A stretch of 64,000 nucleotides of DNA from Actinomycetota bacterium (lineage in GTDB: Bacteria; Actinomycetota; Actinomycetes; S36-B12; UBA5976), in the NCBI GenBank assembly GCA_009698575.1, contig WLPX01000001.1:392747-456746 (forward strand), in the 5' to 3' direction. This document shows, one piece after another, positions 5,515 through 31,372 of the stretch (positions are counted from its first letter, which is position 1; each line of letters starts with the position of its first letter). The position numbers and the translations under genes were made by a program. The notes beneath the pieces were generated by a model. It had not been told where the DNA came from and ran no database searches. It saw only the letters and a list, made by a program, of their open reading frames with translations.

Positions 5515-6747
5515 TCAGCCGGCACTAGTGCCGTCTTGGGCTGGAGTTAACACTCCTTTGAGTCGCAGTGCAAACACGCAGGCGAGTAACTGACCAGCCA
5601 CAATCATGCCGATCCAGCTACCAACAAGTTTGTGCTGCAACATCACGCCGGACACAGCTGGCCCCACGGCACCAGCAAAGACCCAGATCAAACCATCAAC
5701 TGAGTTATACCGGCCGCGTAAATGTTCAGGGGCCAATTCGTTAGTAAGGGTCGGGCCTACCGAAGACCAGATCATCTCACCGAGTGCGAATATTCCAATT
5801 CCTAACGCTGCAAGAATAAACGTTGCTGTCGGATTGAGAGCCACACTAATACCGATGATTACCCAGGACACTGACCAAAGAATTGCAACTGTTGCCATTA
5901 AGCGAATTCGGCTTCGTCCAGTTAGTCGATTTAAGACGAAAATCTGTCCGATGACAATCACGCCGGTATTGACTGCCCAAATTGGACCAAGTGTACGTAC
6001 TGACAAATCCCCAAACAAAGTCAGTAGCGCGGGAAGTCCCGCATCTAAAGATGCATAACCAAAAGTGATCATCAAAAGTTTTGCAAAGGCAAGTCGTATA
6101 AAAGATCGATCGGTAAGCACCTCGCGGTATCCGCCATCGTTATCAACTTGCTCTTGTGTCTTTTCAATTTTTCCACCTACGCCATGTAAGGAATAAATAA
6201 AAGCAAAAAATACCAGAAACGTAATCGCATCTAAAAAGTAAAGGCGCGTGAAGCTCGCTGGGTCGTTTACGTTCACAATGAAGGAGCTAAAAACTCCACC
6301 AAGACCAAGTCCCAGATTTAGCATCATGAATTGCAAACCGAAAAACTTTGGCCGAAAATCTTCATCAACCATGCGAGCCATCATGGTGGTCTGTGGCGGC
6401 CAGATCGCCGAAGCGCCAAGTGAAGAAAGCGCGCCAACTATCAGGGCACTTTGGATATCCGTTACAAATGCCCACGACGCAGTCGAGATCGCCTCAATCA
6501 AAATTGCAGCGAGCATAATTCGCCTTGGGCCGTACTGATCAACCAGGTAACCAATCATCGGTGAAAATGCCAGTCCGGTGATTGCCATCCAAGACAGAAT
6601 TAACGATGCCGAGGTTAGAGAAATTCCTCGGACTTGATTTAAATAGATAATCAAAATCGGTAAAGTTAATCCGCCGCCGAGTGAATTAAGCAATGCGCCA
6701 GCTAAGAACCGCTTTACCTGCGGTGAGGCAGTTCGCAATTCATTCAC
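5515..6747 (-). CDS. MFS transporter
   Basis: 410 aa, about 12 predicted TM helices, with an MFS loop motif around YLVDQYGPRRIM. Confidence 0.85.
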   Translation of the reverse strand: MNELRTASPQVKRFLAGALLNSLGGGLTLPILIIYLNQVRGISLTSASLILSWMAITGLAFSPMIGYLVDQYGPRRIMLAAILIEAISTASWAFVTDIQSALIVGALSSLGASAIWPPQTTMMARMVDEDFRPKFFGLQFMMLNLGLGLGGVFSSFIVNVNDPASFTRLYFLDAITFLVFFAFIYSLHGVGGKIEKTQEQVDNDGGYREVLTDRSFIRLAFAKLLMITFGYASLDAGLPALLTLFGDLSVRTLGPIWAVNTGVIVIGQIFVLNRLTGRSRIRLMATVAILWSVSWVIIGISVALNPTATFILAALGIGIFALGEMIWSSVGPTLTNELAPEHLRGRYNSVDGLIWVFAGAVGPAVSGVMLQHKLVGSWIGMIVAGQLLACVFALRLKGVLTPAQDGTSAG

Positions 6748-6800
6748 TTTAGGTACCAGGCCTTTAAGACTTATTGATTTCTGATTCGGACAAACAAAAC

Positions 6801-6823
6801 TGGAGGTAGATAATCTACCTCCA
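6801..6823 (-). terminator. rho-independent terminator after tRNA-Ala
   Basis: Perfect hairpin TGGAGGTAGA-taa/tta-TCTACCTCCA. On the minus strand it is followed by GTTTTGTTTG. Confidence 0.7.
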
Positions 6824-6831
6824 GCGTTATG

Positions 6832-6904
6832 TGGAGAATAGGGGACTCGAACCCCTAACCCCTGCCTTGCAAAGGCAGTGCTCTACCAATTGAGCTAATT
6901 CCCC
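6832..6904 (-). tRNA. tRNA-Ala (anticodon UGC)
   Basis: Minus-strand sequence: GGGGAATTAGCTCAATTGGTAGAGCACTGCCTTTGCAAGGCAGGGGTTAGGGGTTCGAGTCCCCTATTCTCCA. It folds as a cloverleaf with a G3:U70 identity pair and anticodon loop TTTGCAA. No CCA is encoded. Confidence 0.93.
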
Positions 6905-6928
6905 GGCGGTAAAACCGTAGGACAAAAT

Positions 6929-7042
6929 CTACTCTGAAGTAGCCTGTGTCCACAATTCTTGTTCAGCCTTGCTGTCCTCTACTTGTTGGTAGATCACATA
7001 TCCGGCTACCGCCAATAACGCTAGAGACAATAACTTTTTCAT
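6929..7042 (-). CDS. small membrane-anchored protein (37 aa), resembles the actinobacterial DLW-39 small-protein family
   Basis: ATG at 7042 is preceded by GGAAGGAG 9 nt upstream. Translation: MKKLLSLALLAVAGYVIYQQVEDSKAEQELWTQATSE, stop TAG at 6929-6931. It has a hydrophobic N-terminal helix and an acidic tail with an ELW motif, and sits between tRNA-Ile and tRNA-Ala downstream of gyrA. It falls below the ORF-track size cut-off. Confidence 0.65.
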   Translation of the reverse strand: MKKLLSLALLAVAGYVIYQQVEDSKAEQELWTQATSE

Positions 7043-7074
7043 GTTGATCTACTCCTTCCAACTAGAATTTTGCG

Positions 7075-7149
7075 TGGGCCCAGGTGGACTTGAACCACCG
7101 ACCTCTTCGTTATCAGCGAAGCGCTCTAACCAAGCTGAGCTATGGGCCC
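7075..7149 (-). tRNA. tRNA-Ile (anticodon GAU)
   Basis: Minus-strand sequence: GGGCCCATAGCTCAGCTTGGTTAGAGCGCTTCGCTGATAACGAAGAGGTCGGTGGTTCAAGTCCACCTGGGCCCA. Cloverleaf with anticodon loop CTGATAA. No CCA is encoded. Confidence 0.93.
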
Positions 7150-7264
7150 GAATTTCTTTCGGATCTTGCCTTGTCTTTGCCTTACATTTATTGATTTGTC
7201 CCTATTTCTAGGCACGAGTTAAGAGGTTACCTTAAAGCGGGCTTTCCCCCAAAATGACTGATTT

Positions 7265-7741
7265 CTATCCCCTGTCGGTCAGGGTTAATTCCACTCCGCC
7301 GGTGAAACCGACGCTGAGGTTATACAAAACTGCAAACAGTGTCGAAAGCACACTAAGTAGCACGATTTCTATTGCGGAGAGCACCATTGTTAGCCCAAGC
7401 AATCTGCCTAATGACAAGAAGCTCACGCCGGATCCGGTGCTGCCAGATGCATCACTCCAGAGACTGGTTATTGCTTCAAACACACCTGCCGCGGACAACA
7501 TTCCCCACAGCACGACGGTGGCAACCATCAGCACTCCTGCGATCGTTACACCCAACACGAAGGCGCCTTTGGCAACAGACCATGGGTCTACGTGAGTTAG
7601 ATGCAGGCGTACCTGTCGGTTTGGCTGTGTATCTGCAGGTACAGCTGCCGGCGTTGCTGACTCTTGTGCCTTAAGCGGGTTCTTGAAAAAGTTTCGCTTC
7701 GTTGGCTGATCGTCATTTAAATCAATATCGATGTCAGACAT
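7265..7741 (-). CDS. DUF3566-type transmembrane protein (positional equivalent of M. tuberculosis Rv0007)
   Basis: 158 aa. The start abuts the gyrA stop. It has an acidic/proline N-terminus followed by LTHVDPWSVAKGAFVLG and TM helices. A gene of this type immediately after gyrA is the conserved actinobacterial arrangement. Confidence 0.8.
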   Translation of the reverse strand: MSDIDIDLNDDQPTKRNFFKNPLKAQESATPAAVPADTQPNRQVRLHLTHVDPWSVAKGAFVLGVTIAGVLMVATVVLWGMLSAAGVFEAITSLWSDASGSTGSGVSFLSLGRLLGLTMVLSAIEIVLLSVLSTLFAVLYNLSVGFTGGVELTLTDRG

Positions 7742-10273
7742 TTATTCTGCTTCCCCCTCAGGCGCAACTTCAGTTGGACTTGCTGGAACTTCGACACTCT
7801 CTAGTGCTGCCATTGAAGCTGCGGTGCTTTTTGCAACAGCAACGACTTTATCTTCGTCGCCAACCTTCATAAACGAAACACCCATGGTGTCTCGACCGGC
7901 TGCGCGAATTTCATCTACGCGAGTTCTAATCACAACACCATTGCTAGCAATTGCAAAGATCTCGTCGTCGCCCGCGCAAATTAAAGCGCCAGCAAGTCCG
8001 CCGCGCTTTTCAACTAATCGCATAGCGCGAACACCTTGAGTACCACGACCTTTGGCGTTCCATTCTTCGATTGAAGTTCGCTTTGCCCAACCACCTTCGG
8101 TAACGGTTACAACGAATGAATCTGGTGTTGCGACCTCCATTTTGAGTAGGTAGTCGTCTTCAGTCTTGAAGCGAATTCCAATTACGCCGCCTGCGGTTCG
8201 TCCCATTGGACGAAGAGTTGCGTCGTCAGCATGACAGCGAACTGAATAGCCCATTTTGGAAACCAATAACAAATCATCTTCATCATCGACGAGTTGAGCT
8301 GAGACCACGCCATCTTCATCCCGAAGAGTGATTGCTACCAGGCCAGTGCTTCGCGATGAATCGTAATCCGTTAGGCGCGATTTTTTGATAACGCCATTGC
8401 GAGTTGCTAGCACCAGATACTTTGCCTGTTCGTAATCTCGCAGATCAAGCACCTCGACAACATGCTCTTCGGGCGCAAGCGATAGTAGGTTTGCCACGTG
8501 TTGACCGCGAGCGTCGCGACCAGTGTCAGTGAGTTCGTAGGCCTTAACTCGGAATACCCGACCGCGATCAGTAAAGAACAAAATCCAGTGGTGTGTTGTG
8601 GTCACAAAGAAATTAGTGACTACGTCGTCTTGCTTCAGGGCTGCACCCTTAACTCCACGGCCGCCACGTTTTTGCGAGCGGTAAAGCGCTGCTTTGGTTC
8701 GCTTGATGTAACCATCCGCAGACAACGTAACCACTATCGGCTCTTCTGCGATTAAGTCTTCGTGAGTTACATCGTTTTCATCCGCCACAATTGTGGTGCG
8801 TCGCTCGTCGCCAAACTTATTAACGATTTCAGCTAACTCATCGCTAACAATGCTGCGCTGACGAGTGAGGTTAGAGAGGATGTCTTTGTAATCTGCAATC
8901 TCGGCCATTAACTTGTCGTGCTGAGTTTGTAATTCATTTCGTTCTAGAGCTGCGAGCTTACGCAGCTGCATATCCAAAATCGCTTGCGCTTGGATTTCAT
9001 CAATATCAAGAAGTTTCATTAAGCCGGCTTGTGCAACTGAAGCAGATTCCGATGCGCGGATTAATGCAATCACTTCATCAATTCGATCGATGGCTTTTAA
9101 TAAGCCGATCAAAATATGTACGCGCTCTTCGGCAATTCGTAGTCGGTAAGCAGTTCGGCGCTGAATTACTTCAACCTGGTGCTCAATCCAATTCAAAACA
9201 AACGCATCAAGAGTTAGTGTGCGTGGCACTCCATCGACCAATGCCAACATGTTGGCGCCAAAATTATCTTGTAGCTGGGTGTACTTAAATAAGTTGTTGA
9301 GTACCACCTTTGGCACGGCGTCACGCTTAAGAACTACAACAATTCGCATGCCGGTACGTGATGAGCTTTCGTCAATTAAGTCTGCGATCCCGCTTACTTT
9401 GCCTTGCTCAACTAGTTCAGCAATACGTTCCAATAAATTATCTGGATTTACTTGGTACGGCAGCTGGGTAATCGCGATGATTGTGCGGCCACGCTTATCT
9501 TCGGTGATTTCAGTAACAGCGCGCATTGTTACCGAGCCGCGACCGGTGCGATACGCGTCTTGAATGCCGCGACGGCCAACGATCTGTCCCCCGGTTGGGA
9601 AATCCGGTCCAGTGATTCGTTCCATCAAAGCTTCGAGTAATTCTTCGCGAGTTGCATCTGGATGCTCTAGTGACCACTGCACACCAGCTGCAACTTCAGT
9701 TAAGTTATGCGGCGGGATGTTGGTGGCCATACCTACGGCGATACCTGAGGAGCCATTAACTAATAAGTTCGGGAATCGACTTGGCAGAACGGTTGGTTCT
9801 AAATTCTTGCCATCGTAGTTTGGTACGAAATTGACCGTATCTTGATCAATATCTCGCACCATTTCCATCGCAAGTGCTGCCATGCGACATTCGGTGTAAC
9901 GAGACGCAGCCGCAGAGTCATTACCAGGAGATCCAAAGTTGCCTTGTCCTTGCACTAACGGATAACGCAATGACCAAGATTGGGTCAAGCGCACCAATGT
10001 GTCATAAATCGCACTATCGCCATGTGGATGATATTGACCCATGACTTCGCCGACTACGCGGGCACTCTTATTGAAAGCTCGGTCTGGTCGGTAACCACCG
10101 TCATACATCGCGTAGATAACGCGACGATGGACTGGCTTTAAACCGTCTCGCACATCTGGAAGTGCACGCGAGACGATAACGCTCATTGCATAGTCAAGAT
10201 ATGACCTTTGCATTTCGACATTCAGATCAACGATCTGAACTTCGTCGTGTGTTGAATCGTTTATGTCAGTCAT
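7742..10273 (-). CDS. gyrA: DNA gyrase subunit A
   Basis: 843 aa. Motifs: DGLKPVHRR, the QRDR region [15 protein letters not shown], the active-site Tyr context [11 protein letters not shown], and a C-terminal beta-pinwheel repeat region. Confidence 0.98.
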
Positions 10274-29932: not shown

Positions 29933-31372
29933 GTGAATAACTCATTGCCTCAAGCCATCGCCACCGGAGTAGTTACGACTGCTCTGCAAGAGATGTCTGA
30001 TGTCATGGAGCTGGCTAATGAGTTCAGTCGCTCTGGATATGAGTTTGCAGTTGTTGGTGGACCTGTTCGAGATCTGCTTTTGAGTCGCAGTATTACTGAT
30101 TTGGACTTTACAACGAATGCAACGCCGCAACAAATAATCGAACTCGTCACCCCCTGGGCAGATACCGTTTGGGATGTTGGTATCGCATTTGGCACGGTAG
30201 GTGCGCGGCGAAAAGATTTTCAAGTTGAGATTACGACATACCGCTCGGAAATATATCGAGACGATAGCCGCAAACCGAAAGTGATATTTGGTAAAACGCT
30301 AGAAGAGGACTTAATTCGTCGCGACTTCACTATCAATGCGATGGCAGTGCGACTGCCGGAATTAGTTTTTGTAGATCCGTTTGGTGGAGTCTCCGATTTA
30401 CTGAAAAAAATAATTCGTACACCGCGAGAGCCTGAACTTTCATTCTCAGACGACCCATTGCGAATGATGCGCGCAGCAAGGTTTGCCAGCCAATTGGGCT
30501 TCACGCCAGTGGTAGATGTTTTGTTGGCAGCAACTGATATGGCACAACGGATTGAAATAGTTTCCGCTGAACGTGTGCGCGATGAATTTACCAAATTGAT
30601 AATGGGTGAATTCCCAATAATCGGTTTGGAAATTCTGGAAGGAACCAAGCTAGCCGAACATATAATTCCGGAGTTGCCAGCACTGCAACTTGAGATCGAT
30701 GAACATCACAAGCATAAGGATGTTTACGAACATAGTTTGATCGTCTTGCAACAGGCCATTGATTTGGAAACTACCCATGAGCCCAAGTGTGAACCAGATT
30801 TAGTGCTGCGACTTGCAGCACTGCTACATGATATCGGCAAACCTAAAACCAGAAGGTTTGAATCTGGTGGTGGCGTCAGTTTTCATCACCATGAAGTGGT
30901 GGGCGCTAAAATTGCGCGCAAGAGACTTACCGCGATGCGTTACCCCGGCGATTTAATTGATGCAGTTTGTAAACTTACGGAATTGCATTTGCGATTCCAT
31001 GGATACGGCCAGGGTCAGTGGACTGACTCAGCAGTACGCAGGTATGTCCGGGATGCCGACGATCAGTTAGTTCGATTGCATAAGTTAACGCGAGCCGATT
31101 GCACGACTCGCAATCAACGTCGGGCCGCCATACTTTCTGCCACCTATGATGATTTGGAGCAGCGAATCTCAGTCCTAGAAGAGCAGGAGGAACTTAAGGC
31201 AATTCGTCCCGACCTTGATGGCAACGACATCATGGAGATTCTCGGCGTTTCGGCCGGCCCAAAAGTAGGTAAGGCATATAACTATTTACTTGAGGTACGT
31301 CTTGATGAAGGACCACTTCCTCGCGATGAAGCAATTAGAAAATTAACGCAATGGTGGCAGTCGCAAAGTTAA
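29933..31372 (+). CDS. cca: CCA tRNA nucleotidyltransferase (class II, with HD domain)
   Basis: 479 aa with a GTG start. Motifs: GGPVRDLLL, DFTTNATP, RRDFTINA, and HD motif LLHDIGKP. Confidence 0.92.
   Translation: MNNSLPQAIATGVVTTALQEMSDVMELANEFSRSGYEFAVVGGPVRDLLLSRSITDLDFTTNATPQQIIELVTPWADTVWDVGIAFGTVGARRKDFQVEITTYRSEIYRDDSRKPKVIFGKTLEEDLIRRDFTINAMAVRLPELVFVDPFGGVSDLLKKIIRTPREPELSFSDDPLRMMRAARFASQLGFTPVVDVLLAATDMAQRIEIVSAERVRDEFTKLIMGEFPIIGLEILEGTKLAEHIIPELPALQLEIDEHHKHKDVYEHSLIVLQQAIDLETTHEPKCEPDLVLRLAALLHDIGKPKTRRFESGGGVSFHHHEVVGAKIARKRLTAMRYPGDLIDAVCKLTELHLRFHGYGQGQWTDSAVRRYVRDADDQLVRLHKLTRADCTTRNQRRAAILSATYDDLEQRISVLEEQEELKAIRPDLDGNDIMEILGVSAGPKVGKAYNYLLEVRLDEGPLPRDEAIRKLTQWWQSQS

What the first reader, a model, noticed from the sequence alone, without database searches (positions are those of the whole stretch)
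6801..7149. A 37-aa protein gene is embedded between tRNA-Ile and tRNA-Ala with almost no spacer
The minus-strand order is:
- tRNA-Ile(GAU), 7149-7075
- a 32-nt spacer containing only the SD GGAAGGAG
- a 37-codon ORF, 7042-6929 (MKKLLSLALLAVAGYVIYQQVEDSKAEQELWTQATSE)
- a 24-nt spacer
- tRNA-Ala(UGC), 6904-6832
- a strong terminator, 6823-6801

There is no room for a separate promoter or terminator around the ORF. Its mRNA is therefore most simply produced by RNase P / 3'-end processing of a tRNA-mRNA-tRNA precursor, which would be tRNA-punctuated expression.

The ORF falls below normal gene-calling length thresholds. From memory it resembles the small actinobacterial DLW-39 family (one TM helix plus a D/E-L-W tail) found near gyrA. 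Its function is unknown. Neither tRNA encodes CCA.
Basis: partly seen in the sequence, partly recalled or inferred. Interest (0 to 1): 0.6.

Follow-up and report, generated by a model that had tools for sequence, protein, structure and literature searches.

The report
Small-protein gene between two tRNAs
A real, conserved 37-residue membrane-protein gene of the known actinobacterial DLW-39 family sits between the cell's only tRNA-Ile(GAU) and tRNA-Ala(UGC) genes, so its messenger is most likely cut out of a tRNA precursor; the gene family is already catalogued, but this way of making a bacterial mRNA has not been shown experimentally.

Summary
The 37-codon ORF (7042-6929, minus strand) belongs to NCBIfam NF038356, the DLW-39 family (53.5 bits, cut-off 24). 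It is under purifying selection: variable columns by codon position are 11/6/31, and pN/pS is about 0.13-0.18.

The protein is already in public records, and cluster mates are named 'DLW-39 family protein'. This scan has also noted the same arrangement several times on other DNA.

The tRNA-Ile / ORF / tRNA-Ala sandwich is the usual context of the family across class Actinomycetes. The window's 32-nt leader and 24-nt trailer are near the medians.

In this freshwater Nanopelagicales genus the unit has:
- a conserved promoter-like motif plus hairpin upstream of tRNA-Ile;
- a conserved terminator after tRNA-Ala;
- no promoter-like motif in front of the ORF.

RNA-library contigs bridge the ORF into tRNA-Ala.

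- The last nine codons carry a second, nucleotide-level constraint shaped like a promoter for tRNA-Ala (TTGTGG, 18 nt, TAGATT).
- No RNase Z was found in the genome, so RNase E plus RNase PH and the CCA-adding enzyme are the likelier route for the tRNA-Ile 3' end.

The protein's function remains unknown. The processing model is inferred, not shown.

The parts
7224..7252 (-). Promoter-like motif upstream of tRNA-Ile: -35 TTGGGG (7252-7247), 17-nt spacer, -10 TAACCT (7229-7224). It starts 13 nt after the DUF3566 stop codon.
   Evidence: The motif is conserved in the genus alignment, where GGTAAYCTC is invariant. The pattern scan places it at -103 from tRNA-Ile. It was found again in 17 of 21 genus loci with the strict pattern, and three of the four misses visibly keep the TTTTGGG ... 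GGTAA motif in the printed upstream sequence. It is a consensus match and has not been tested.
7198..7215 (-). Small hairpin at the start of the predicted pre-tRNA-Ile leader, about 8-9 nt after the -10 element.
   Evidence: A 5-7 bp stem is predicted in all distinct genus sequences examined, and both sides change together, for example GTGCC/GGCAC, GCGCCC/GGGTGC and GTGCCG/CGGTAC. Its role is inferred; protection of the 5' end is one possibility.
7075..7149 (-). tRNA-Ile(GAU), with no encoded CCA. It is the only tRNA-Ile(GAU) gene found in the genome.
   Evidence: ARAGORN, Rfam RF00005 at 72.7 bits and a genome-wide ARAGORN run that found 41 tRNAs.
7043..7074 (-). 32-nt leader of the ORF, with Shine-Dalgarno GGAAGGAG at 7059-7052, 9 nt before the ATG.
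   Evidence: Read directly from the sequence. Genus leaders are 23-49 nt, diverge strongly (61% mean pairwise identity), and each keeps a purine-rich block before the ATG. No TTGNNN-N16-19-TANNNT or TANNNT motif lies here (and direct reading).
6929..7042 (-). DLW-39 family microprotein gene of 37 codons plus a TAG stop. The protein has an N-terminal MKK, a hydrophobic helix over residues 4-18, and an acidic helical tail carrying E-L-W.
   Evidence: NF038356 scores 53.5 bits against a cut-off of 24. Codon periodicity is 11/6/31 and pN/pS is 0.13-0.18. W31 is invariant and K2, K3, L4, L5 and T35 are nearly invariant across 23 sequences. AlphaFold2 predicts one helix over residues 2-36 with mean pLDDT 82.
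6926..6955 (-). Nucleotide-level conserved block inside the ORF end, shaped like a promoter for tRNA-Ala: TTGTGG (the L30-W31 codons, 6955-6950), 18 nt, then TAGATT (the stop codon plus 3 nt, 6931-6926).
   Evidence: The block is present in 25 of 25 distinct genus spacers at -49 to -57 from tRNA-Ala. Normalised synonymous entropy is 0.18 in codons 29-37 against 0.66 in codons 2-28 (Mann-Whitney p = 1e-4). Third-position identity is 0.84 against 0.53. Other tRNA genes of this genome carry the same pattern at -40 to -72. Promoter activity has not been tested.
6905..6928 (-). 24-nt trailer between the stop codon and tRNA-Ala, including a 4-bp hairpin (CGGT-TTT-ACCG, 6917-6907) two bases before the RNase P site.
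   Evidence: Trailers are 79% identical within the genus, against 61% for leaders. Relatives show alternative small stems at the same place, such as GCGT/ACGC, CGCG/CGCG and TTTTCAC/GTGAAAA. The stem is too weak and lacks a T-run, so it was not called a terminator.
6832..6904 (-). tRNA-Ala(UGC), with no encoded CCA. It is the only tRNA-Ala(UGC) gene found in the genome.
   Evidence: ARAGORN, Rfam at 73.3 bits and the genome-wide tRNA list.
6799..6825 (-). Intrinsic terminator that closes the unit: a 12-bp stem, a 3-nt loop and a T-run.
   Evidence: Found by the terminator scan. A GC-rich hairpin plus T-run right after tRNA-Ala occurs in 11 of 12 genus loci, at -16 to -25 kcal/mol for the 60-nt stretch folded.
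7265..7741 (-). DUF3566 membrane-protein gene (Rv0007-type), the conserved upstream neighbour. It follows gyrA (10273-7742) and gyrB (12273-10273).
   Evidence: Pfam PF12089 E = 3e-32, plus the gyrase domains. No terminator-like site lies between its stop codon and the tRNA-Ile promoter motif.

Best explanation
The ORF is a genuine gene for a DLW-39 family microprotein. The protein is one continuous helix. Its first ~20 residues form a membrane anchor with MKK on the cytoplasmic side, and its acidic tail carries the invariant Trp of the [D/E]-L-W motif.

The gene has no transcription signals of its own. It is transcribed as the middle part of the ileT-alaT unit. That unit starts at the conserved promoter-like motif at 7252-7224 and ends at the terminator at 6825-6799.

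Maturation of the two tRNAs then sets the ends of the mRNA:
- 5' end: an endonuclease cuts just after the tRNA-Ile discriminator. This is probably RNase E/G, with RNase PH trimming and CCA addition finishing the tRNA, because no RNase Z was found. The cut leaves a 5'-monophosphate mRNA with a ~32-nt leader that carries the SD.
- 3' end: RNase P cuts at the 5' end of tRNA-Ala and leaves a ~24-nt trailer.

Synthesis of the protein is therefore tied to transcription of the cell's only tRNA-Ile(GAU)/tRNA-Ala(UGC) genes.

Shown here: the gene is coding and conserved, the anatomy is as described, the flanking signals are conserved, and the needed enzymes are encoded. Inferred: the single precursor, the cut sites, the membrane topology and any function of the protein.
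For: Coding:
- NF038356 scores 53.5 bits against a cut-off of 24.
- All 13 genus CDS are distinct, with variable columns 11/6/31 by codon position and pN/pS 0.13-0.18.
- The same frame is kept from low-GC to high-GC relatives.

Context:
- All 24 relatives' loci with intact flanks have the ORF between tRNA-Ile(GAU) and tRNA-Ala(UGC).
- In a class-wide draw, 222 of 301 genomes and 114 of 140 genera score above the cut-off.
- Of 35 loci from about 27 families, 22 have both tRNAs. The median leader is about 32 nt and the median trailer about 26 nt.
- In 11 relatives (L002, L005, L009, L082, L084-L089, L107) the start codon follows the discriminator by one base. Trailers go down to 7-12 nt. Neither leaves room for a promoter or a terminator.

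Unit boundaries in this genus:
- The promoter-like motif and leader hairpin upstream of tRNA-Ile are conserved.
- A terminator follows tRNA-Ala in 11 of 12 loci.
- There is no terminator-like or promoter-like site between the tRNAs in front of the ORF.

RNA: contigs from freshwater metatranscriptome libraries of two studies match 6860-7052 (1 mismatch), 6859-6961 (0 mismatches) and 6932-7051 (1 mismatch). They join the ORF to the first 45 nt of tRNA-Ala.

Machinery in this genome:
- RNase P RNA, 306 bits.
- CCA-adding enzyme, 727 bits.
- RNase E/G, 502 bits.
- RNase PH, 364 bits.

Structure: AlphaFold2 predicts a single helix over residues 2-36, with pLDDT above 90 over residues 1-20.
Against: - No RNA ends were mapped. 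The laid runs are assembled contigs, which cannot show starts, ends or strand, and DNA carry-over in the libraries cannot be excluded.
- No near-identical contig bridges the tRNA-Ile/leader junction. Contigs from two studies stop at 7051/7052, inside or just after the SD.
- A conserved promoter-shaped element for tRNA-Ala overlaps the ORF end. tRNA-Ala therefore need not come only from the long precursor.
- RNase Z was not found, so the textbook route for tRNAs without encoded CCA does not apply. The 5'-end-forming nuclease is a guess, drawn by analogy with Propionibacterium acnes (PMC3848588).
- Read-through from gyrA-DUF3566 is not excluded, because no terminator lies between them.
- Streptomyces-like genomes keep the gene without tRNA-Ala, and some without tRNA-Ile within 1.5 kb. 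The family can therefore be expressed in other ways.
- There is no evidence of translation or of the protein itself.
Confidence: 0.7

Rival explanations
1. Two-promoter unit. tRNA-Ala is made mainly from its own promoter, which is embedded in the last nine codons and the stop codon of the ORF (TTGTGG, 18 nt, TAGATT; predicted start near 6919). The ORF is then a dual-use sequence, and only its 5' end depends on tRNA processing. This is compatible with co-transcription of tRNA-Ile and the ORF, but it contradicts a simple single tRNA-mRNA-tRNA precursor.
For: - The motif is kept in 25 of 25 distinct genus spacers. The 18-nt spacing is also kept in the two loci that lost a codon, which use TATCTT instead.
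- Leu30 is TTG in 24 of 24 sequences, while the other Leu positions use 4-6 different codons.
- Normalised synonymous entropy is 0.18 against 0.66, p = 1e-4.
- 16 of the 41 tRNA genes of this genome carry the same pattern within the 150 nt upstream scanned, most of them at -40 to -72. The tRNA-Ala motif at -51 falls in that range.
Against: - The match to the -35 consensus is only 3 of 6, and the consensus scan did not call it.
- Part of the motif is forced by the protein: W is TGG, and the stop codon begins with TA.
- Outside the genus only 1 of 25 loci has such a motif before tRNA-Ala. Many relatives have trailers of 7-12 nt and no such element, so this is not how the family works in general.
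- RNA structure or a nuclease site could equally explain the conservation.
Confidence: 0.35
2. The ORF has its own promoter inside or just after the tRNA-Ile gene and is transcribed independently of tRNA-Ile.
For: RNA-library contigs from two studies end at 7051/7052 and do not reach tRNA-Ile, and no loose ends are reported there. This is a weak hint of an RNA 5' end downstream of the tRNA.
Against: - No TTGNNN-N16-19-TANNNT motif, and no TANNNT at all, lies between the tRNA-Ile body and the ATG (and direct reading).
- A 5' end at 7052 would remove the SD.
- Leaders vary freely in sequence and length within the genus.
- Relatives with a 1-nt gap cannot hold such a promoter.
- Contig ends about 20 nt short of an RNA end are expected from k-mer assembly at a depth of about 15.
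Confidence: 0.08
3. The ORF acts mainly in cis as a translated spacer. Ribosomes on it would modulate processing or transcription of tRNA-Ala, and the peptide itself would be dispensable.
For: - The stop codon lies 24 nt before the RNase P site, so a terminating ribosome would cover that site.
- A nucleotide-level constraint overlaps the ORF end.
- In two Mycobacterium-like genomes the divergent ORF ends 10 nt inside tRNA-Ala.
Against: - The amino-acid sequence, not only the frame, is kept across the class: KKLL, the hydrophobic helix, A-E-x-[D/E]-L-W-x-x-A-T, and an invariant W.
- Synonymous sites over codons 2-28 are near saturation while the protein stays fixed.
- Streptomyces-like genomes keep the best-scoring members (69.6 bits) with no tRNA-Ala downstream.
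Confidence: 0.07

Closest known systems
DLW-39 family protein (NCBIfam NF038356, actino_DLW39; a hypothetical equivalog used by NCBI's annotation pipeline)
   Same: The HMM score is well above the cut-off. The length is about 39 aa. The protein has an N-terminal KKLL plus a hydrophobic helix, a [D/E]-L-W tail and an actinomycete host. The gene lies after gyrA-DUF3566 between tRNA-Ile and tRNA-Ala.
   Different: Nothing essential differs. This genus has E-L-W rather than D-L-W, lacks the C-terminal PDLR seen in many relatives, and has an SD-bearing leader rather than an abutting start codon.
Bacterial operons that co-transcribe tRNAs with an mRNA, such as E. coli thrU-tyrU-glyT-thrT-tufB and tyrT-tpr (from my own knowledge, not checked here)
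   Same: A tRNA promoter drives a downstream protein-coding sequence, and tRNA maturation separates the two.
   Different: In those operons the mRNA is the last cistron and has its own terminator. Here the mRNA lies between two tRNAs, so both of its ends would be set by tRNA processing. The arrangement is conserved across a whole class.
Mitochondrial tRNA punctuation (RNase P and RNase Z release mRNAs flanked by tRNAs; reviewed in PMC3790967)
   Same: The mRNA is flanked directly by tRNAs with spacers of 0-32 nt. There is no separate promoter or terminator for the ORF. In some relatives the start codon abuts the tRNA.
   Different: This is a single bacterial locus, not a genome-wide mode of expression. 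The window's mRNA keeps an SD leader. No RNase Z was found in this genome. A possible internal promoter overlaps the ORF end. Nothing has been shown at the RNA level.
tRNA 3' maturation without RNase Z in Propionibacterium acnes (PMC3848588)
   Same: The host is an actinomycete with no obvious RNase Z. An endonucleolytic cut falls a few bases after tRNAs, including those without encoded CCA, and RNase PH and RNase D are present.
   Different: That paper does not describe an mRNA released by the cut. The enzyme was not identified there either.

Membership tests
DLW-39 family (NF038356) | Score above the curated cut-off of the family HMM over nearly its full length | tested here: met
   53.5 bits against a cut-off of 24, E = 1.5e-14, residues 2-36 on profile positions 1-35 of 38.
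DLW-39 family (NF038356) | About 39 residues, with one N-terminal hydrophobic helix after a basic start, and an acidic tail with [D/E]-L-W | tested here: met
   The protein has 37 aa, begins MKK, is hydrophobic over residues 4-18, and has E29-L30-W31. W is invariant in 23 aligned members. The model is one helix over residues 2-36.
DLW-39 family (NF038356) | Found in Actinomycetes, downstream of gyrA-DUF3566 at the ileT-alaT site | tested here: met
   gyrB, gyrA and DUF3566 lie upstream. Relatives are titled Candidatus Nanopelagicales or Actinomycetes. The tRNA flanks were seen in 24 of 24 complete relatives' loci.
tRNA-punctuated mRNA (mitochondrial type) | The mRNA is flanked on both sides by tRNA genes and has no transcription signals of its own | tested here: met
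   The spacers are 32 and 24 nt, with no promoter-like or terminator-like site in front of or behind the ORF within them. Caveat: a promoter-shaped motif for the downstream tRNA overlaps the ORF end.
tRNA-punctuated mRNA (mitochondrial type) | One precursor RNA spans tRNA, mRNA and tRNA | tested here: inconclusive
   RNA-library contigs bridge the ORF and tRNA-Ala but not tRNA-Ile and the ORF. Contigs cannot prove a single transcript.
tRNA-punctuated mRNA (mitochondrial type) | The mRNA ends are made by RNase P (3' side) and RNase Z (5' side) | tested here: not met
   RNase P RNA is present. No RNase Z scored above the cut-off; the best hit was 28.7 bits against 293, in a genome that is 92% complete. 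RNase E/G and RNase PH are present instead. The cut sites themselves cannot be tested with these tools.
Bacterial tRNA-mRNA operon (tufB / tpr type) | The mRNA is transcribed from the promoter of an upstream tRNA gene | tested here: inconclusive
   A conserved promoter-like motif lies upstream of tRNA-Ile and none lies before the ORF. No transcript start was mapped.

The most novel reading that the evidence does not exclude
Across class Actinomycetes, a membrane microprotein would be made from an mRNA that exists only as the piece left over when the cell's sole tRNA-Ile(GAU) and tRNA-Ala(UGC) are cut out of one origin-proximal precursor. This would be a conserved bacterial counterpart of mitochondrial tRNA punctuation. 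It would tie the protein's supply to tRNA transcription, and so to growth rate. In this genus the last nine codons would in addition serve as the promoter of the downstream tRNA.
Probability: 0.4. Interest if true: 0.65.

Novelty: new variant of a known kind. Interest (0 to 1): 0.45.

Why it matters
The gene itself is not new. It belongs to a curated family and is annotated in public records.

What would matter is the mode of expression. A class-wide, ancient case of a bacterial mRNA whose two ends are set by tRNA maturation would be a simple natural system for three questions:
- how 5'-monophosphate, processing-derived mRNAs are translated and stabilised;
- how leadered and leaderless versions of one gene interconvert;
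- how a small protein's dose can be tied to tRNA synthesis.

The locus is present in tractable actinomycetes and, in divergent form, in mycobacteria. The questions are therefore directly testable. The protein's own role is unknown.

Tried and rejected
Partner test:
- A predicted complex of DLW-39 with the membrane domain of its neighbour DUF3566 gave no answer (score 0.00). This is neither for nor against binding.

I used the DUF3566 neighbour instead.

Literature:
- No paper holds 'DLW-39'.
- Searches on tRNA-Ile/tRNA-Ala/gyrA small proteins, ileT/alaT/Rv0007, bacterial tRNA punctuation and tRNA-flanked small ORFs found nothing relevant.
- The stored part of the M. tuberculosis Ribo-RET table (PMC9094748, supplementary file 1, cut when stored) has no entry at coordinates 1096x-1101x. 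I recalled those coordinates for the ileT-alaT spacer from memory, so this says nothing either way.

Protein Atlas:
- The feature search returned only unnamed small-protein clusters.

Metatranscriptome lay:
- The flanking MFS gene and most of the DUF3566 gene had no near-identical cover.
- The very abundant 'joint' contig that skips 6905-7074, with 11 other letters in between, comes from other organisms whose two tRNAs are adjacent (7 mismatches in tRNA-Ala). It is not a spliced form of this locus.

Ideas rejected:
- Force-sensing arrest peptide (SecM/MifM type). A 37-residue chain would still be inside the ribosomal tunnel at termination.
- Terminator role for the small hairpin before tRNA-Ala. 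It has 4 bp and no T-run.
Full report
**Observation**

On the minus strand, ARAGORN and Rfam find tRNA-Ile(GAU) at 7149-7075 and tRNA-Ala(UGC) at 6904-6832. Between them lie three segments:
- a 32-nt leader with GGAAGGAG at 7059-7052;
- an ATG-to-TAG ORF of 37 codons at 7042-6929;
- a 24-nt trailer.

A 12-bp hairpin with a T-run follows tRNA-Ala at 6825-6799. Neither tRNA gene is followed by CCA. Upstream lie gyrB, gyrA and a DUF3566 membrane-protein gene. Downstream lie an MFS transporter gene and dnaB.

**Is it a gene, and which one?**

The peptide scores 53.5 bits (cut-off 24, E = 1.5e-14) against NCBIfam NF038356, the DLW-39 family. It has no Pfam match.

Thirteen loci of the same genus carry thirteen different nucleotide sequences for almost the same protein. 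Excluding the most distant locus, variable columns by codon position are 11, 6 and 31 of 35. The mean pN is 0.09-0.12 against a pS of 0.67. The ORF is therefore a protein-coding gene under purifying selection.

The exact protein is already present in NCBI, IMG, ENA and UniRef on nine contigs. Members of its 90% cluster are named 'DLW-39 family protein'. It has not been overlooked by annotation.

AlphaFold2 on a 23-sequence alignment gives one continuous helix over residues 2-36. The pLDDT is above 90 over the hydrophobic first 20 residues and 64-74 over the acidic tail. W31 is invariant, and K2, K3, L4, L5 and T35 are nearly so.

From the positive-inside rule I infer an N-in, C-out single-pass topology. 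This is an inference, not a result.

**Organism**

The window lies in a 1.70-Mb, 30-contig, 92%-complete genome with 47% GC over the window. Relatives whose DUF3566 protein is 75-91% identical are titled as freshwater Candidatus Nanopelagicales or Actinomycetes MAGs.

**How general is the arrangement?**

- Nearest relatives. In 26 of 31 of the nearest genomes the family is found. In all 24 loci with both flanks assembled, it lies between tRNA-Ile(GAU) and tRNA-Ala(UGC), with spacers of 135-404 nt.
- Class-wide. In an even draw of the class, 222 of 301 genomes and 114 of 140 genera score above the cut-off. This tally includes one unpublished genome, G458, and no other claim rests on it.
- Forty fetched loci from about 27 families. 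The ORF was recognised in 35. Of these, 26 have tRNA-Ile upstream, 28 have tRNA-Ala downstream and 22 have both. Several loci are cut by contig ends. The median leader is about 32 nt and the median trailer about 26 nt. The window is thus the ordinary form of the family.
- Tight spacers. In 11 relatives the start codon follows the tRNA-Ile discriminator by a single base. Trailers go down to 7-12 nt. In such loci there is physically no room for a promoter, a ribosome-binding site or a terminator. The family can be expressed there only from a tRNA co-transcript.
- Exceptions. Streptomyces-like genomes keep the gene without tRNA-Ala, and sometimes without a nearby tRNA-Ile. One family has a 49-nt spacer and no ORF. 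A Mycobacterium-like genus has a divergent ORF with an E-[VI]-W-H tail that falls below the HMM threshold.
- Beyond the class. Two genomes of another class of the phylum hold a weakly matching ORF in the same slot.

**The transcription unit in this genus**

- Promoter. Immediately after the DUF3566 stop codon there is a conserved motif: TTGGGG (7252-7247), 17 nt, TAACCT (7229-7224). In the genus alignment GGTAAYCTC is invariant while the surrounding sequence drifts.
- Leader hairpin. About 8 nt further on lies a 5-7 bp hairpin (7215-7198) whose two sides change together among species.
- Terminator. A GC-rich hairpin plus T-run follows tRNA-Ala in 11 of 12 genus loci.
- Between the tRNAs. The consensus scan finds no promoter or terminator there. 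The leader holds no TANNNT hexamer at all.
- Leader variation. Leaders in the genus vary from 23 to 49 nt and are only 61% identical. Each keeps a purine-rich block 6-10 nt before the ATG.
- Gene copy number. tRNA-Ile(GAU) and tRNA-Ala(UGC) are each single-copy among the 41 tRNA genes found. The unit must therefore be transcribed constitutively and strongly.

**RNA evidence**

The only runs holding this sequence are freshwater and riverine metatranscriptomes kept as assembled contigs. When laid on 6400-8200, near-identical contigs cover the following:
- 6860-7052 (193 nt, 1 mismatch; run X2);
- 6859-6961 (0 mismatches; run X1);
- 6932-7051 (1 mismatch; run X1).

Molecules in RNA libraries of two studies therefore join the whole ORF to the first 45 nt of tRNA-Ala, as expected for an unprocessed ORF-tRNA-Ala species.

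No near-identical contig crosses the tRNA-Ile/leader junction. Both long contigs stop at 7051/7052 with no loose end. That fits efficient cutting after tRNA-Ile, because k-mer assembly at a depth of about 15 stops some 20 nt short of an RNA end. It could also reflect strain branching or a separate start.

Contigs cannot show ends, strand or level, and DNA carry-over cannot be excluded. I count this as weak support only.

**Processing machinery**

The genome encodes the following:
- RNase P RNA, 306 bits;
- the actinobacterial CCA-adding enzyme, 727 bits, inside the window at 29984-31360;
- RNase E/G, 502 bits;
- RNase PH, 364 bits.

No RNase Z was found. The best hit scored 28.7 bits against a cut-off of 293. 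The genome is 92% complete, so this is 'not found', not 'absent'.

Propionibacterium acnes, another actinomycete, also lacks an obvious RNase Z. It shows endonucleolytic cuts a few bases after tRNAs, including those without encoded CCA (PMC3848588, read).

The 3'-side enzyme is more likely RNase E/G followed by exonucleolytic trimming and CCA addition.

**A second layer in the ORF end**

Synonymous variation is not uniform along the gene.
- Over codons 2-28 the normalised synonymous entropy averages 0.66. Over codons 29-37 it averages 0.18 (Mann-Whitney p = 1e-4).
- Third-position identity is 0.53 against 0.84.
- Leu30 is TTG in 24 of 24 sequences, while the other Leu positions use four to six codons.
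- The stop is TAG in 22 of 24 sequences and TAA in the other two.
- The trailer is 79% identical, against 61% for the leader.

The conserved block reads TTGTGG (6955-6950), 18 nt, TAGATT (6931-6926). All 25 distinct genus spacers keep TTGTGG, 18 nt and TA(G/A)NTT at -49 to -57 from tRNA-Ala. The two loci that lost a codon keep the 18-nt spacing by using the next hexamer, TATCTT.

In this genome 16 of the 41 tRNA genes carry TTGNNN-N16-19-TANNNT within the 150 nt upstream that I scanned, most of them at -40 to -72.

A promoter for tRNA-Ala embedded in the ORF end is the simplest reading, and I give it about 0.35. Three points count against it:
- It was not called by the stricter consensus scan.
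- Part of it is forced by the protein sequence.
- Outside the genus only 1 of 25 loci has such a motif.

If it is real, it does not give the ORF a promoter. It does mean the unit is not a simple one-promoter precursor, and that 'no room for a promoter' is only true of the spacers.

**Function**

Nothing tested here reveals what the protein does.
- The predicted complex with DUF3566 gave no verdict.
- The Atlas feature search returned only unnamed clusters.

My committed reading is a small single-pass membrane protein made in proportion to transcription of an essential, origin-proximal tRNA unit, probably acting as a subunit or modulator of a conserved envelope component. My confidence in that functional part is low.

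**Comparison with known systems**

- The gene is a regular member of a curated family in its regular place.
- Co-transcription of tRNAs with an mRNA is known in bacteria, for example the tufB and tyrT-tpr operons of E. coli (from my own knowledge).
- Release of mRNAs by tRNA excision is the rule in mitochondria (PMC3790967).
- I found no paper that mentions DLW-39 or describes a bacterial mRNA bounded by tRNAs on both sides.
- This scan has noted the same arrangement on other DNA several times, including a follow-up on a relative whose start codon abuts the tRNA.

**Verdict**

The expression model is plausible and is supported by anatomy and comparative data, but it is unproven. Compared with the earlier notes, this window adds four things:
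- the leadered, SD-bearing form;
- the conserved flanking promoter-like motif and terminator;
- the absence of a detectable RNase Z;
- the promoter-shaped constraint inside the ORF end.

Noticed in passing
L056 and L057 (Mycobacterium-like genus g15), ileT-alaT spacers of 132 and 138 nt: The spacer holds a divergent DLW-like ORF with a hydrophobic helix, a basic patch and an E-V-W-H tail. It falls below the HMM threshold. Its stop codon lies 10 nt inside tRNA-Ala, so RNase P cleavage would leave an mRNA without a stop codon. In a third genome (L058) the ORF stops 8 nt before the tRNA.
   Followed up: partly
L059 (family f17, genus g25): DUF3566 is present, but the tRNA-Ile/tRNA-Ala spacer is only 49 nt and has no ORF. 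The microprotein gene appears to have been lost at this site.
   Followed up: no
L027-L037 (Streptomyces-like genus g14); L092-L097 (family f91): The best-scoring DLW-39 genes (69.6 bits) have no tRNA-Ala downstream. Their tRNA-Ile lies at varying distances or more than 1.5 kb away. In family f91 the reverse holds: tRNA-Ala follows at 141-236 nt, but no tRNA-Ile lies within 800 nt upstream. The sandwich has been broken more than once.
   Followed up: partly
L050 and L055 (another class of the phylum, family f64): A weakly matching ORF (23-25 bits, tail A-I-W-E-E-P) sits between tRNA-Ile(GAU) and tRNA-Ala(UGC). The arrangement may therefore predate class Actinomycetes.
   Followed up: no
window 7198-7215 (minus strand): A conserved 5-7 bp hairpin with compensatory changes lies right after the predicted start of the pre-tRNA-Ile transcript. 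Its role is unknown; protection of the 5' end is one guess.
   Followed up: partly
window 6907-6917 (minus strand), and the same place in relatives: A small hairpin lies 2-3 nt before the tRNA-Ala 5' end. Relatives have different stem sequences there, and longer GC-rich stems occur in high-GC relatives with longer trailers. It could protect the mRNA 3' end after the RNase P cut.
   Followed up: no
whole genome G000: No RNase Z was found above the cut-off, although most of the 41 tRNA genes lack an encoded CCA. RNase E/G, RNase PH, RNase P RNA and the CCA-adding enzyme (window 29984-31360, plus strand) are present.
   Followed up: partly
window 6831-6905 joined to 7074-7143 in RNA-library contigs: Very abundant metatranscriptome contigs join a tRNA-Ala and a tRNA-Ile that are 90-95% like the window's, separated by only 11 other letters. 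They belong to other organisms in the samples, not to this locus.
   Followed up: no
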